Source: a virus. Taken from it: DNA of 10,755 nt. The stretch is taken from IMG/VR virus record IMGVR_UViG_3300029133_000269, positions 1 through 10,755 of that record. The stretch is one strand, 5' to 3'. Positions 1 through 6,881 of this stretch are shown one piece after another (the stretch's first letter is position 1; each line of letters begins with the position of its first letter). Under the pieces are notes generated by a model. That model saw only the letters and a list, made by a program, of their open reading frames with translations. It ran no database searches and was not told the DNA's origin. A program made the position numbers and the translations under genes.

Positions 1-99
1 CGGCGTTCTTGATACGTTCATAGCACCATGCGAACACGATAAAAAACAACAATGCCAAAATGTTGTAATTCAAATCATCAATTTTTTCTTCAATGCTTC
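1..99. repeat. Terminal direct repeat; exact copy of 10657..10755 (circular-assembly overlap)
   Basis: Base-by-base comparison: 1..99 is identical to 10657..10755. The unit length is therefore 10,656 bp. Confidence 0.95.
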
Positions 100-3358: not shown

Positions 3359-3535
3359 TCAACACAAGTACATAAGCATAAACTTCAAAACGAAAAGTAG
3401 AGGATACACTGTAAAAAAACATCCTATAAGTATTAAAAAAACAGATAAGAGCGGGCACTCATGCAGTGAATCACCTAGTAAGAAAGTTGCAAAACCGAAA
3501 AAACCACATATTAAATATTTGAAAATTTGCTCCAT
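3359..3535 (-). CDS. Small hydrophobic protein, 58 aa (MEQIFKYLICGFFGFATFLLGDSLHECPLLSVFLILIGCFFTVYPLLFVLKFMLMYLC). Not in the supplied ORF track.
   Basis: ATG at 3535 is preceded by TTTTTTCACGAAAAGGAGAACGCA, the same leader motif as the 64-aa gene. TGA stop at 3359..3361. Confidence 0.5.
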   Translation of the reverse strand: MEQIFKYLICGFFGFATFLLGDSLHECPLLSVFLILIGCFFTVYPLLFVLKFMLMYLC

Positions 3536-3552
3536 TGCGTTCTCCTTTTCGT

Positions 3553-3589
3553 GAAAAAAGAGGGGTGCAGATCGTTCTGCATCCCTCTT
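3553..3589 (-). terminator. Rho-independent terminator on the minus strand immediately after the coat-like gene
   Basis: 14-bp stem (AAGAGGGATGCAGA / TCTGCACCCCTCTT with one G.U pair) and 4-nt loop, followed on the minus strand by TTTTTCAC. Confidence 0.7.
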
Positions 3590-3607
3590 ATACTGCCGTG
3601 ATCCGGG

Positions 3608-3799
3608 TTATACGGAACGCTTTGCAACTCCGAACAGACCGAAGCAAGCACAAGCTACGGAAACAGCTAACAGAATGTTCAGCGGATACTCTCCGAACAG
3701 ACCCATGATGGACTTACATACGGAAATCAGAGTAGTAACGATAGCAGTATCGAAAGTAGGAGCGGCTTCTGCCGCCGCAATGATTGCTAAACCAGGCAT
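3608..3799 (-). CDS. Putative major coat protein (inovirus pVIII-like), 63 aa from the ATG at 3799 (MPGLAIIAAAEAAPTFDTAIVTTLISVCKSIMGLFGEYPLNILLAVSVACACFGLFGVAKRSV)
   Basis: RBS AAAGGAGAAACATATG. Small size with an Ala-rich acidic N-terminus, a hydrophobic core and a basic C-terminus (KRSV). A strong terminator follows directly, matching the gVIII-then-terminator arrangement of filamentous phages. Confidence 0.55.
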   Translation of the reverse strand: MPGLAIIAAAEAAPTFDTAIVTTLISVCKSIMGLFGEYPLNILLAVSVACACFGLFGVAKRSV

Positions 3800-3909
3800 A
3801 TGTTTCTCCTTTCTTATAGATAATACCGAATACATACGTCTATGCTCTGGGTTTAGTTATCTATAAATGTTTTTGTTTATAAAATCAGCTTGCTGAAATT
3901 ACCGGGGTA

Positions 3910-3931
3910 AAAGTTCGAACGTTCGAACTTT
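3910..3931. repeat. 22-bp perfect palindrome AAAGTTCGAACGTTCGAACTTT (copy of the 16-bp GTTCGAACGTTCGAAC element)
   Basis: Read directly; self-complementary over 22 bp. Lies about 110 nt upstream of the coat-like gene start. Confidence 0.9.
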
Positions 3932-4482
3932 AGAGGGTGTGACGGGAGTTGAACCCGTAAGCAAGTAGCTTTCAGATATCATTGTGCGCACTGCTCTTGT
4001 TTGCCTGGTACATTCGCACCCCATATTATTTTTTTGGTTGTTGGGTTATGTGTTGCTGTTGCATGGGTGAGGGGTGATACTTTGTGTACCATTCCGAACC
4101 CCTCCCATGAAAAACTACGAAAGCAAAATACGCTTTTCTTGTTTTTCTATTGCGTCCCCTTGCCCCCTCCCAAGGGGACGAAAGGTCAAGGGCAAAAGCG
4201 CTTGATCTGGGAACTGGTAAAAATATAATTGCTTATAGTCAGGCTGAACCTTCCGGGCTTCACCCTTGCCACAGATAACAAAGTGATGCAGTTTTTAAGG
4301 GCAAGGGCATCACCAACAAAGAAAAGCGGGTGGCGGCAGACGGTAGTTGTTTGGCTATGGTCTGCGCTGTGGCTGTCCGGGGACTTTGTAAGGGCTGTTA
4401 ACATCTTTTTGCGCCGGGAGGTGGGATAGTGCGCCCACATCCCGGCAAGATGCAAAAAGATCAAGGGCGGATTTGTTAGTGG

Positions 4483-4629
4483 TTAGTCGTCATAAACGTC
4501 ACTGAATGCCACAAGAGACAAAAAAGAGGCAAGAAACGCAAGTATTACCATCCACCAATCAATAGGATCGCCAAGTAAAAAATCAACCACTACAACCGCC
4601 ACGCCGATCAAAAAAAATATAAGTCCCAT
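4483..4629 (-). CDS. Small membrane protein, 48 aa from the ATG at 4629 (MGLIFFLIGVAVVVVDFLLGDPIDWWMVILAFLASFLSLVAFSDVYDD)
   Basis: Two hydrophobic helices and an acidic C-terminus. The GGAAGG RBS is weak. The longer track ORF 4483..4752 has an implausible N-terminal extension. Confidence 0.4.
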   Translation of the reverse strand: MGLIFFLIGVAVVVVDFLLGDPIDWWMVILAFLASFLSLVAFSDVYDD

Positions 4630-4718
4630 AGTGTTTACCTTCCTATATAGAAAAAGCCGGGAATGTATCCACGTTCGTTTCTTCTGGGTACTAGCGCACA
4701 TAAAAGGTAAAGGGGTAA

Positions 4719-4734
4719 GTTCGAACGTTCGAAC
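4719..4734. repeat. 16-bp perfect palindrome GTTCGAACGTTCGAAC, copy 2
   Basis: Read directly. Lies upstream of the 48-aa gene, in a GGGGTAAG context similar to the copy at 3913. Confidence 0.9.
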
Positions 4735-4897
4735 ACTCCCGGCGTTTTTCACTTCACACTTGCCCGGCAGTCTGTAGGGAGACTAACCGGGCATCACACC
4801 GGAGAACGTACCGGGGAGAAGATCGCAAGGGGCACACCATGAAAATGAGATGTGATCACTTCTCTTTACTCCCTAGACCCGGAACGTTCCAAGCGGC

Positions 4898-5203
4898 TTA
4901 TTTCTTATCCTTATCTTTGCCGGGATCAGCGGCGGCAGTACCGGGGGCGGTAGCAGTTCCGGGGAGATCATAGATACCAGTCACACGCAGAGTCTTTTTA
5001 CCCTCATACTCACTGATCTGCATACCGAACACGTAGTCCTTGAAAAGTTCCTTGTTCTGCTTATAGACTTCCTCTGTACAGGACAAGCTTGTTGCTTCCG
5101 ATCCCTGCAAAACAGCTAACTGGTAATACTTGCCATTGCTTCCAGTCATGCTCTTTTCTTCGATTGCTACCAAAGTACCTCTAAACTGTGTTGCTAATTT
5201 CAT
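4898..5203 (-). CDS. Hypothetical protein, 101 aa. It may be an OB-fold ssDNA-binding protein (gV-like by size and position), with a Lys-rich disordered C-terminal tail.
   Basis: RBS AGAAGAGGTAAACAATTATG. C-terminal tail PGTATAPGTAAADPGKDKDKK. A 10-bp palindrome GGAACGTTCC (4881..4890) lies 8 nt past the stop. Confidence 0.6.
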   Translation of the reverse strand: MKLATQFRGTLVAIEEKSMTGSNGKYYQLAVLQGSEATSLSCTEEVYKQNKELFKDYVFGMQISEYEGKKTLRVTGIYDLPGTATAPGTAAADPGKDKDKK

Positions 5204-6833: not shown

Positions 6834-6881
6834 ATAGTCTTGTGATCGGATTTTCGTGTCATTTCCTTATCACAAGACTAT
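6834..6881. repeat. Perfect 13-bp inverted repeat ATAGTCTTGTGAT...ATCACAAGACTAT with a 22-nt spacer; it overlaps the -10/+1 of the consensus promoter
   Basis: Arms at 6834..6846 and 6869..6881 are exact reverse complements. T/A-rich tracts flank both sides. Confidence 0.85.

What the first reader, a model, noticed from the sequence alone, without database searches (positions are those of the whole stretch)
3840..4482. 640-bp GC-enriched non-coding region packed with hairpins, CAAGGGC repeats and a tRNA 3'-end-like hairpin
No credible ORF is present (three short, unsupported ORFs were rejected). A 9-bp perfect hairpin GTCCCCTTG-8nt-CAAGGGGAC sits at 4154..4179. An 8-bp IR CCCTTGCC/GGCAAGGG (4264..4271 and 4300..4307) nests a GTGATGC/GCATCAC IR. 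Three CAAGGGC(A/G) repeats are at 4187, 4296 and 4461. Next to palindrome copy 4 (3913), the minus strand reads GGGTGCG...ACGGG-TTCAACT-CCCGT-CACACCC. This resembles a tRNA T-arm plus 3' acceptor strand, but no full cloverleaf could be folded. Candidate roles are a minus-strand origin or packaging signal of an ssDNA phage, an attP core copying a tRNA 3' end, or a structured ncRNA.
Basis: seen in the sequence. Interest (0 to 1): 0.65.

Follow-up and report, generated by a model that had tools for sequence, protein, structure and literature searches.

The report
Anticodon-less tRNA mimic in gut inovirus
The large non-coding gap of this 10.7-kb filamentous gut phage holds a real, evolutionarily maintained tRNA-shaped RNA gene that has no anticodon arm, belongs to a family also found in tRNA gene arrays of larger phages, and is not the phage's integration site.

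Summary
The window is a circular 10,656-bp inovirus of human-gut Lachnospiraceae. It encodes a G2P-type Rep, a Zot/pI ATPase and an IS30-like transposase, and its genes lie on the minus strand.

The stretch 3800-4482 is truly non-coding and strongly structured. Its key part is an 89-nt tRNA-like element at 4022-3934 on the minus strand:
- an 8-bp acceptor stem abutting a 5-bp T-stem with a TTCRANY loop;
- a small D-arm with GG;
- in place of an anticodon arm, a short stem in most relatives closing a ~25-nt loop with an invariant GTGCGCAC.

About 50 relatives carry three or more sequence versions in near-identical flanks. Pairing is kept in 95% of cells, against 46-57% in slid controls. Six of 8 acceptor pairs and 3 of 5 T-stem pairs show compensatory changes.

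Homologues lie in or next to same-strand tRNA genes in other phage contigs of 35-69 kb, so it most likely acts as RNA.

The attP idea is refuted. More than 25 prophage copies open at 6895/6896 with 13-14-bp target duplications, far from this region.

The upstream 300 nt (4023-4320) is more conserved than the genes. It carries covarying hairpins and six CCCTTG repeats, and is a candidate origin or packaging region. Function is inferred, not shown.

The parts
3934..4022 (-). tRNA-like RNA gene (version 'A'). Its parts are: acceptor 5' strand 4022-4015 (GGGGTGCG); D-like arm TGT/ACA at 4012-4010 and 4000-3998 with loop ACCAGGCAA; central region with invariant GTGCGCAC at 3991-3984; T-stem 3958-3954 and 3946-3942 (ACGGG/CCCGT); T-loop TTCAACT at 3953-3947; acceptor 3' strand 3941-3934 (CACACCCT). 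No CCA is encoded.
   Evidence: Pairs defined by fixed anchors in 34 unique variants are 12.8 of 13 paired on average. On alignment A4, 95.4% of cells are paired against 46-57% when slid, and 6/8 acceptor and 3/5 T-stem pairs change on both sides. The wider family gives 94.6%. There is a local Rfam tmRNA T-arm match at 3942-3958. Model R1 scores the window copy at 81 bits. ARAGORN finds no tRNA.
3910..3931 (.). 22-bp perfect palindrome AAAGTTCGAACGTTCGAACTTT. It starts 2 nt after the tRNA-like 3' strand and is one of five copies in the genome.
   Evidence: 5 copies against 0.01 expected. It is invariant in relatives apart from a single C-to-T change in L005.
3800..3909 (-). Leader of the major-coat-protein gene. 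It is invariant at 3884-3903, has a small covarying hairpin at 3833-3844 (CATA-CGTC-TATG on the + strand) and the RBS AAGGAG. The coat start codon is at 3799-3797.
   Evidence: Alignments; conservation profile.
4023..4320 (-). Conserved non-coding core, 85-98% identical in all close relatives and more conserved than the flanking genes. It contains hairpins 4180-4153, 4147-4109 (inner 4136-4120), 4265-4241 and 4332-4311, and an A-rich tract just 5' of the tRNA-like element.
   Evidence: Conservation profile, alignment, and RNAalifold with per-pair counts. Compensatory changes occur at 4180/4153, 4132/4124, 4264/4242, 4257/4249, 4255/4251 and 4332/4311. One-sided changes are nearly all G-U on this strand.
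4321..4482 (-). Variable 5' module, present in about half of the relatives and replaced by unrelated sequence in the rest. It holds a long hairpin (core 4447-4434 with 4425-4412, outer stem out to about 4461/4403).
   Evidence: The hairpin has 13 bp, 4 variable pairs all to G-U, and 0 of 247 non-canonical cells.
4157..4467 (.). Cluster of six CCCTTG/CAAGGG motifs: 4157+, 4171-, 4187-, 4263+, 4302-, 4462-. They are candidate Rep-binding or nick-site repeats.
   Evidence: Similar clusters occur in non-coding DNA of distant relatives, and the 12-mer GCCCTTGACCTT is shared with bajarodino virus 15.

Best explanation
The gap between the replication module and the coat-protein module of this filamentous phage is a composite control region.

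**The tRNA mimic.** Its 3' part (4022-3934, minus strand) is a gene for a small tRNA-shaped RNA.
- It keeps the 'top half' of a tRNA: acceptor stem, T-arm, and a D-loop with GG for the elbow.
- The anticodon arm is replaced by a short stem closing a ~25-nt loop that carries the conserved palindrome GUGCGCAC.

**Likely processing (inferred).**
- The element is transcribed as part of the long sense transcript. No promoter-like site was found on this strand between 4900 and 3500.
- It is then cut out by the host's tRNA-maturation enzymes. RNase P would cut at the 5' G. RNase Z would cut after the discriminator, because no CCA is encoded, and CCA would then be added.

**Likely consequences (inferred).**
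- A stable tRNA-like RNA is released, with the conserved loop as its working part.
- The upstream message is separated from the coat-gene message. The coat message would then begin 2-3 nt before the palindromic hairpin.

**The upstream part.** The strongly conserved 300 nt upstream, with hairpins and CCCTTG repeats, most likely holds the replication origin and/or packaging signals of the viral strand.

**Shown versus inferred.** Shown here are the structure, its conservation by compensatory change, the strand, the family relationship and the non-att status. RNA processing, the role of the loop and the origin assignment are inferred.
For: **Structure and selection**
- The acceptor plus T-stem is 12.8 of 13 paired in 34 variants that differ by up to half of their bases, inside flanks that are 95-100% identical.
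- Formal counts give 95.4% of cells paired against 46-57% in slid controls. No shuffle of 500 reaches the covariation score, and 9 of 13 pairs in these two helices change on both sides.
- The wider family gives the same picture.

**tRNA likeness**
- The T-loop TTCRANY and GG in the D-loop are kept in almost every variant (one, L152, has lost the GG).
- MFE folds of versions B and C and of L205 give a cloverleaf unaided.
- The Rfam tRNA model scores 35.2 bits (gathering score 29) on version C with the anticodon arm unaligned. tRNA-Sec scores 22.8 bits on version B.

**RNA rather than a DNA element**
- Homologues score 62.9, 38.4, 35.9 and 33.7 bits with model R1 in 35-69-kb phage contigs. In two of these contig groups they sit in same-strand tRNA arrays, and in two others next to a single same-strand tRNA.
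- One array, for example, reads Gln-Val-Ser followed by the element.
- Two of these loci were scanned with PHROGs and carry DnaD-like loader, primase, exonuclease and HNH genes.

**Not a universal inovirus cis element**
- The element is absent from L008, L012-L015 and three GenBank bajarodino viruses.

**Context**
- There is no consensus promoter on the sense strand in 3500-4900.
- The palindrome lies 2 nt downstream of the element.

**Upstream core**
- It has the highest conservation in the region.
- It has hairpins with compensatory and G-U-only changes.
- It holds the CCCTTG cluster, and similar clusters occur in non-coding DNA of distant relatives.
Against: - There is no expression data, so transcription and RNase P/Z cleavage are untested.
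- The window's own version A has one C-A mismatch and one G-U in the acceptor stem. Its D-arm (3 bp) and central stem are weakly supported, and it does not reach any Rfam threshold.
- Covariation cannot tell RNA from the packaged ssDNA, because they are the same strand.
- The central loop has no resolved structure or known partner.
- The promoter scan is a crude consensus scan.
- In larger phages the element sits in tRNA arrays, where a 'punctuation' role is unnecessary, so that part of the mechanism may be incidental.
- The origin assignment rests on motif enrichment and a single shared 12-mer (chance about 0.07).
Confidence: 0.55

Rival explanations
1. The whole region, tRNA-like part included, works as folded single-stranded viral DNA. 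On this view it is the minus-strand origin and/or packaging signal recognised in the entering or exported ssDNA, and no functional RNA is made.
For: All supported helices fold on the gene-sense strand, which is the packaged strand in inoviruses (established knowledge). One-sided changes are G-T-type on that strand. The region is the only large non-coding stretch next to the structural genes. It folds far better than shuffles.
Against: The tRNA-like element has homologues in or beside tRNA genes of 35-69-kb phage contigs, two of which carry dsDNA-phage-type replication genes. It keeps tRNA-specific loop sequences (TTCRANY, D-loop GG) that a DNA hairpin signal would not need. It is absent from other inoviruses with related Rep and Zot. 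It is swapped as a cassette among otherwise identical genomes.
Confidence: 0.12
2. It is an attP core that copies the 3' end of a host tRNA or tmRNA gene, so that integration restores the gene.
For: The T-arm plus acceptor 3' strand resembles a tRNA/tmRNA 3' end. Different 'cassettes' could match different host tRNAs. A distant relative, L011, does sit at tRNA-Lys with a duplicated 3' part.
Against: The junction of more than 25 prophages lies at window 6894-6897, not here. There are 13-14-bp target duplications at unrelated sites, typical of DDE transposition by the encoded IS30-like enzyme. The 5' acceptor strand covaries with the 3' strand. There is no second copy of the 3' half in any flank.
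Confidence: 0.02
3. It is a true decoding tRNA with an unusual or expanded anticodon arm (for example a suppressor or His-like tRNA), or alternatively a decaying tRNA pseudogene.
For: There is an 8-bp acceptor stem with G(-1) opposite C73 in most versions, as in bacterial tRNA-His. The branch is 8/5, as in tRNA-Sec. The Rfam tRNA model is passed by version C. Homologues sit in tRNA arrays.
Against: No 5-bp stem with a 7-nt loop can be placed. ARAGORN finds nothing at default settings, and with relaxed settings it gives a different anticodon for each version. The Rfam alignment leaves 27 nt unaligned where the anticodon arm should be. A pseudogene would not keep 95% pairing through compensatory changes, nor an invariant GTGCGCAC across unrelated phages.
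Confidence: 0.08
4. The tRNA mimic is a decoy or sponge for host factors that act on the tRNA acceptor end or elbow. Examples are defence toxins that modify or cleave tRNA 3' ends, and tRNA-binding regulators. This would explain its rapid cassette turnover.
For: The acceptor and T-stem sequence is hypervariable in constant flanks. The element is retained in a 10-kb genome with little spare capacity. The family is shared between unrelated gut phages.
Against: No defence or toxin partner was identified. The most conserved part is the central loop, not the acceptor end. This rival is purely inferential.
Confidence: 0.12

Closest known systems
Phage-encoded tRNA genes (Rfam RF00005)
   Same: It has an acceptor stem, a D-arm with GG, and a T-arm with a T-psi-C-type loop. 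No CCA is encoded, as in many Firmicutes tRNA genes. Homologues lie inside phage tRNA arrays. Version C passes the Rfam gathering score under permissive filters.
   Different: There is no anticodon stem-loop. Instead most versions have a 3-4-bp stem with a ~25-nt loop carrying GUGCGCAC. The inovirus copies have an 8-bp acceptor. ARAGORN does not call it, and the window's own version reaches no Rfam threshold.
tRNA-like processing signals: mascRNA at the MALAT1 3' end (RF01684) and plant mitochondrial t-elements
   Same: These are tRNA-shaped modules embedded in a longer transcript and recognised by RNase P and RNase Z, releasing a small RNA and defining the ends of the flanking RNAs. An A-rich tract lies just 5' of the element, as in MALAT1. 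There are weak Rfam hits to mascRNA (E = 0.3-0.7).
   Different: Those are eukaryotic or organellar. No sequence homology exists, and no processing was shown here. The central loop here is conserved, which a pure processing signal would not need.
tRNA-like domains of tmRNA and of bacterial Y RNAs (YrlA; RF00023, RF01053)
   Same: The acceptor/T-arm mimicry lacks an anticodon. There is a local T-arm match to tmRNA and a weak match to the tRNA-like module of the Deinococcus Y RNA (E = 0.51).
   Different: There are no pseudoknots or tag reading frame, and ARAGORN finds no tmRNA. The ends lie at the acceptor stem rather than at a Ro-binding stem, and no Rsr gene is present.
Intergenic region of Ff filamentous phages (packaging hairpin, minus- and plus-strand origins)
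   Same: It is the single large non-coding region of an inovirus, packed with hairpins on the viral strand, with repeated short motifs that could bind Rep.
   Different: It lies between the replication and coat modules rather than between genes IV and II. There is no sequence similarity. It contains a tRNA-like gene, which Ff lacks. None of the origin functions was tested.
Non-canonical tRNAs with long acceptor branches (tRNA-Sec 8/5; tRNA-His with G-1:C73; allo-tRNAs, PMC5389517)
   Same: It has an 8-bp acceptor stem plus a 5-bp T-stem, with G(-1) paired to position 73 in most versions.
   Different: Those all have a normal anticodon arm and decode. This one does not have that arm.

Membership tests
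tRNA (RF00005) | Acceptor stem of 7 bp closed by the 5' and 3' ends | tested here: met
   An 8-bp stem (7 bp plus G-1:N73). It is 97-98% paired, and 6-7 of 8 pairs show changes on both sides.
tRNA (RF00005) | T-arm: 5-bp stem, 7-nt loop T-T-C-R-A-N-N, directly abutting the acceptor 3' strand | tested here: met
   It is 99-100% paired, with 3 of 5 pairs compensatory. The loop is TTCAACT, TTCGATC or TTCGAGT.
tRNA (RF00005) | D-arm with conserved GG in the loop | tested here: inconclusive
   There is a 3-4-bp stem (CTCA/TGAG, CTY/GAG, TGT/ACA) with GG in the loop. Only 88-91% of cells are paired, the register shifts between versions, and the window's version has just 3 bp.
tRNA (RF00005) | Anticodon arm: 5-bp stem with a 7-nt loop carrying an anticodon | tested here: not met
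   The Rfam alignment leaves 27 nt unaligned there. ARAGORN finds nothing at default settings and gives inconsistent anticodons when relaxed. The MFE fold gives a 3-4-bp stem plus a 25-nt loop.
tRNA (RF00005) | Score at or above the Rfam gathering threshold | tested here: inconclusive
   Version C (L009) scores 35.2 bits against 29, but only with permissive filters on a short stretch. No hit was found at default filters. The window's version A shows only a 17-nt T-arm match.
tmRNA (RF00023) | tRNA-like domain plus pseudoknots and a tag-peptide reading frame | tested here: not met
   ARAGORN finds no tmRNA. Only the T-arm matches (11.2 bits against 47). The element is 89 nt long.
attP site carrying a tRNA 3' end | The prophage/host junctions fall inside the tRNA-like sequence, with a direct repeat of it at the other end | tested here: not met
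   The junctions are at window 6894-6897 in more than 25 contigs. The target duplications are unrelated 13-14-mers. No second copy occurs in the flanks.
Inovirus intergenic origin/packaging region (Ff type) | Hairpins conserved on the packaged strand | tested here: met
   Hairpins 4180-4153, 4147-4109, 4265-4241, 4332-4311 and 4447-4412 keep pairing, with compensatory or G-U-only changes on the sense strand.
Inovirus intergenic origin/packaging region (Ff type) | Rep nick site and Rep-binding repeats; origin activity | not testable with these tools
   Only indirect evidence exists. There is the CCCTTG cluster. Similar clusters and a shared GCCCTTGACCTT occur in relatives with a related Rep. 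The resemblance of CTTG-A to the phiX174/pC194 nick motif is recalled from memory.
Phage 'GUGCGCAC-loop' tRNA mimics (family defined here, model R1) | Cloverleaf top half plus a central short stem closing a ~25-nt loop with GTGCGCAC ... AAACAAC ... GANAGC | tested here: met
   The window copy scores 81 bits. Relatives score 75-111 bits. Non-inovirus phages score 62-63 bits (L205, L304, L308-L312) and 34-38 bits (L224, L269, L254). The window's version A keeps GTGCGCAC but has a diverged 3' half of the loop.

The most novel reading that the evidence does not exclude
A horizontally exchanged family of anticodon-less tRNA mimics is carried both by filamentous phages and by larger phages that also encode tRNA genes, in the human gut. 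The tRNA 'top half' recruits host tRNA enzymes for processing and stability. A conserved palindromic GUGCGCAC loop does the real work. Possible roles for it include dimerisation, capture of a host or phage factor, and decoying tRNA-directed defence. This would be a new class of viral tRNA-like effector RNA, and the first RNA gene of this kind in an inovirus.
Probability: 0.2. Interest if true: 0.85.

Novelty: new variant of a known kind. Interest (0 to 1): 0.6.

Why it matters
**Why it is unexpected.** From my own knowledge, which I did not check here, inoviruses have tiny genomes and are not known for carrying tRNA-type genes. This lineage nevertheless keeps a tRNA mimic in all ~50 sampled relatives and swaps versions of it. 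That implies selection for something other than decoding.

**What the family offers.**
- The same family occurs next to tRNA genes in larger gut phage contigs.
- It matches no Rfam family other than tRNA itself.
- It is therefore a concrete, testable case of a viral tRNA-like RNA whose function lies outside translation.
- Candidate functions are mRNA punctuation, protection from or hijacking of tRNA-handling enzymes, and defence evasion.

**Practical points.**
- tRNA-like ends in phage non-coding DNA should not be read as att sites without locating the junctions.
- This phage integrates by IS30-type transposition with 13-14-bp duplications.

Tried and rejected
- **Public phage records.** Megablast and blastn of the genome and of the region against 50,697 phage records gave no DNA match.
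- **Rfam.** The whole window at E <= 1 gave nothing in the region. Ten relatives at gathering thresholds gave nothing.
- **ARAGORN.** It found no tRNA or tmRNA in the window or in close relatives.
- **Viral 15-mer scan.** The scan with CATGCAACAGCAACA returned only chance hits and wasted one scan.
- **Loose pattern GTGCGCAC..GGTTCRANYCC.** It returned, besides some ordinary tRNAs and chance matches, an abundant unrelated mini tRNA-like element. It also revealed the true homologues.
- **Relaxed ARAGORN, with and without introns.** The anticodons were inconsistent, so a decoding tRNA was rejected.
- **Coding hypothesis for the sense ORFs of 92-170 aa.** Rejected: the frames are broken between relatives, there is no conserved start, and there are no PHROG hits.
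- **GTGATGC/GCATCAC pairing, and a pseudoknot with CCCTTGCC/GGCAAGGG.** Neither is kept in relatives.
- **Helix GGGAGGGG/CCCCTCACCC.** A T-to-C change breaks it without compensation.
- **Palindrome as intrinsic terminator, and a sigma-70 promoter for the tRNA-like or coat gene.** Neither was found by the consensus scan.
- **Mini-tmRNA reading of the central loop.** There is no conserved stop or tag.
- **K-turn reading of the GA-rich 3' side of the loop.** The required G-A is not conserved.
- **Model R1 on distant inoviruses.** The search of L008, L010-L015 and three GenBank bajarodino viruses gave no convincing member.
- **Structured-RNA catalogue paper.** The supplement of PMC10690425 is not held, so I could not check whether this element is among its candidates.
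Full report
**What the window is**

Bases 1-99 repeat at 10657-10755, so the window is a circular 10,656-bp element. Nearly all genes lie on the minus strand:

| Gene | Coordinates | Evidence |
|---|---|---|
| Zot/pI-like ATPase | 10478-9567 | |
| Rolling-circle Rep of the G2P type (PF23343) | 9198-8440 | |
| IS30-like DDE transposase | 8088-7075 | |
| Several small genes | — | — |
| Non-coding gap | — | — |
| 63-aa membrane protein with a basic tail, the likely major coat protein | start 3799 | — |
| 656-aa protein | 2967-997 | — |

This is the layout of a filamentous phage (inovirus). The closest Rep relatives in GenBank are uncultured 'bajarodino' and 'Dulem' inoviruses. A 95%-identical prophage lies in a Lachnospiraceae MAG. 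About 50 further copies come from human-gut metagenomes.

**Checking the observation**

- **Non-coding status.** The ORFs in the region have no PHROG hit. Among relatives they differ in reading frame, lack a conserved start, and are cut by 1-2-nt indels.
- **GC content.** It rises to 0.47-0.50.
- **Folding.** The 647-nt sense strand folds at -194.5 kcal/mol, against -161.9 +/- 4.9 for shuffles.
- **The 9-bp hairpin.** It is at 4154-4179 as stated.
- **The CCCTTGCC/GGCAAGGG repeat.** It is at 4263-4270 and 4300-4307.
- **The GTGATGC/GCATCAC repeat.** It is interleaved with that repeat rather than nested, and relatives do not keep it.
- **CCCTTG/CAAGGG.** It occurs six times within 310 bp, out of 11 copies in the genome.

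**The tRNA-like element**

Read on the minus strand, 4022-3934 has these parts:
- an 8-nt strand GGGGTGCG;
- a small hairpin with AGG in its loop;
- a central stretch containing GTGCGCAC;
- ACGGG-TTCAACT-CCCGT;
- directly after that, CACACCCT, which pairs with the first strand.

Relatives carry at least three quite different versions in the same place, while the flanks are 95-100% identical:

| Version | Acceptor strands | T-stem |
|---|---|---|
| A | as in the window; L006 has GAGGTGTG/CACACCTC | ACGGG/CCCGT |
| B | GGGGAAGT/ACTTCCCC | GTGGG/CCCAC |
| C | GAGGAATA/TATTCCTC | CCGGG/CCCGG |

Evidence for the pairing:
- I took the pairs from fixed anchors: the conserved ATATG on the 5' side and the T-loop on the 3' side. 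On that basis, 34 unique variants have 12.8 of 13 pairs formed on average. Six of 8 acceptor pairs and 3 of 5 T-stem pairs show two or more Watson-Crick types.
- On a MAFFT alignment, the named structure has 95.4% of cells paired. When the partner is slid by 1-3 columns the figure is 46-57%. No shuffle of 500 reaches the covariation score.
- Minimum-energy folds of versions B and C give a cloverleaf without any constraint. It has an 8-bp acceptor, a 4-bp D-arm, a 3-4-bp central stem closing a 25-nt loop, and the T-arm.

Comparison with tRNA models:
- The Rfam tRNA model scores version C at 35.2 bits (gathering score 29). It leaves 27 nt unaligned where the 17-nt anticodon arm belongs.
- Version B is closest to tRNA-Sec, at 22.8 bits.
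- The window's version A gives only a T-arm match to tmRNA.
- ARAGORN finds nothing at default settings. When relaxed it assigns a different anticodon to each version.

It is therefore a tRNA mimic without an anticodon arm, not a decoding tRNA and not a pseudogene.

**RNA or DNA?**

Covariation alone cannot separate RNA from the packaged single strand, because they are the same strand. The decisive lead came from a pattern scan of viral contigs and from a covariance model (R1) built on the inovirus copies.
- Clear homologues with the same central motif (GGCGTGCGCACAGAAAACAAC...GAAAGCC) occur in phage contigs of 35-69 kb. They score 62-63 bits (L205, L304, L308-L312) and 34-38 bits (L224, L269, L254).
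- In two of these contig groups they lie in same-strand tRNA arrays. Examples are tRNA-Gln, Val, Ser and then the element, or a position among Asn, Met, Leu and Gln. In two other groups a single same-strand tRNA lies nearby.
- The two loci whose ORFs were scanned carry primase, DnaD-like loader, exonuclease and HNH genes.
- Adding them raises the number of covarying acceptor pairs to 7 of 8.
- The element is missing from more distant inoviruses with related Rep and Zot (L008, L012-L015, three bajarodino viruses).
- One such relative, L010, instead has a different tRNA-like element. It has a 7-bp acceptor and an encoded ACCA, and it follows a TTGACA-17-TATATT promoter at the head of its Rep operon.

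Together these points favour an RNA gene of the tRNA kind that moves between phages, rather than an inovirus-specific DNA signal.

**Not the attachment site**

- Homology between the window and more than 25 independent contigs stops at window 6894-6897, with foreign DNA of up to 8.7 kb beyond. Several contigs show both ends.
- The ends read ...TATAATTTTCA and TGTAAATGTCAATAAG.... They are joined in the circle with two bases between them.
- Five prophages show 13-14-bp duplications of unrelated target sequences.
- This is transposition by the IS30-like enzyme, not tRNA-directed site-specific integration.
- No second copy of the tRNA-like 3' half exists in any flank.

**The rest of the gap**

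- **Window 4023-4320.** It is 85-98% identical in all close relatives, which is higher than in the neighbouring genes.
- **Window 4321-4482.** It is replaced by unrelated sequence in about half of the relatives.
- **Hairpins.** RNAalifold on 19 sequences supports local hairpins at 4447-4412, 4332-4311, 4265-4241, 4180-4153 and 4147-4109. They show a few compensatory changes and otherwise G-U-type changes only, so the sense strand is the one that folds.
- **CCCTTG clusters.** They also occur in non-coding DNA of distant relatives. The 12-mer GCCCTTGACCTT is shared with bajarodino virus 15.

I read this part as the likely home of the origin and packaging signals. That is an inference.

**Mechanism proposed**

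- **Transcription.** No promoter-like site was found on the sense strand between 4900 and 3500. The coat gene is therefore probably read through from upstream, and the tRNA mimic would be part of that transcript.
- **Processing.** Established knowledge of tRNA maturation says that the acceptor/T-arm helix plus the elbow suffices for RNase P and RNase Z. It also says that CCA-less precursors are cut by RNase Z after the discriminator.
- **Products.** Such cuts would release the mimic. They would leave a coat mRNA that begins 2-3 nt before the 22-nt palindromic hairpin.
- **The loop.** Its conservation in unrelated phages suggests that the released RNA has a function of its own.

None of these steps has been tested.

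**Verdict**

- The attP reading is wrong.
- The 'structured RNA' reading is right for the tRNA-like part.
- The origin/packaging reading remains open for the upstream part.
- The element is a new variant of a known kind (phage tRNA-like RNAs). It has no matching curated family other than tRNA itself.

Noticed in passing
window 6850-6940 (junction at 6895/6896); transposase gene 7075-8088 (-): The phage integrates by IS30-type transposition. Prophage ends are ...TATAATTTTCA and TGTAAATGTCAATAAG..., and they are joined in the circular form with a 2-nt spacer. Five prophages (L153, L160, L161, L169, L170) show 13-14-bp target-site duplications at unrelated targets.
   Followed up: yes
window 3913, 4719, 6807, 7057, 9508 (16-bp core); 3910-3931 for the 22-bp form: The perfect palindrome (AAA)GTTCGAACGTTCGAAC(TTT) occurs five times, against 0.01 expected, always between gene modules. 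Two copies sit about 10 nt upstream of a ribosome-binding site (6807, 9508). It may be an operator for a phage regulator or an RNA hairpin at message ends.
   Followed up: partly
window 3833-3844: A small hairpin lies in the coat-gene leader: CATA-CGTC-TATG on the + strand. Its two middle pairs covary among relatives (CATA/TATG, CACA/TGTG, CGCA/TGCG, CGTA/TACG on the sense strand).
   Followed up: partly
window 3797-3835: The mechanical ORF 3608-3835 starts too early. The conserved RBS AAGGAG and the alignment place the coat-protein start at the ATG 3799-3797. That gives a 63-aa protein with a hydrophobic core and a basic C-terminus.
   Followed up: partly
L010:1-200 and 9900-10051 (Oscillospiraceae MAG, circular ~9.9 kb): A more distant inovirus, also with a G2P Rep and an IS30-like transposase, has a different tRNA-like element. 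It has a 7-bp acceptor GCAGCAG/CTGCTGC, an encoded ACCA, and a long central hairpin. It lies right after a near-consensus promoter TTGACA-17-TATATT, at the head of the Rep operon.
   Followed up: partly
L187, L189, L190 and about 40 more loci (~45-kb gut phage contigs): An abundant, different mini tRNA-like element occurs here. It is an acceptor stem GCGCACG/CGTGCGT enclosing only a small hairpin (CTTT-AATGG-AAAG) and a T-arm (ACAGG TTCGAAT CCTGT). It lies next to a gene start on the other strand. ARAGORN does not call it.
   Followed up: no
L011:3380-3440 and 14110-14183: A distant relative (Zot 53%) lies near a tRNA-Lys gene. A second copy of that tRNA's 3' part lies about 10.7 kb away, as expected for classical tRNA-targeted integration. 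Integration strategies therefore differ within this phage group.
   Followed up: partly
window 4202-4229 (+ strand): There is a promoter-like site TTGATC-16-TATAAT (10 of 12 matches) on the antisense strand of the conserved core. The TATAAT is invariant in relatives. It could drive an antisense transcript across 4236-4482. The number of such sites in the region is no more than chance.
   Followed up: partly
window 4183-4194 (-) and L305 ~4070-4085: The 12-mer GCCCTTGACCTT is shared with the 950-nt unannotated gap of bajarodino virus 15, whose Rep is 38% identical. CTTG-A resembles the nick motif of phiX174/pC194-type Reps (recalled from memory), and the Rep here has the two-tyrosine motif YITKY.
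   Followed up: partly
window 1-99 and 10657-10755: There is an exact 99-bp terminal repeat. The window is a circularly closed assembly of 10,656 bp.
   Followed up: yes
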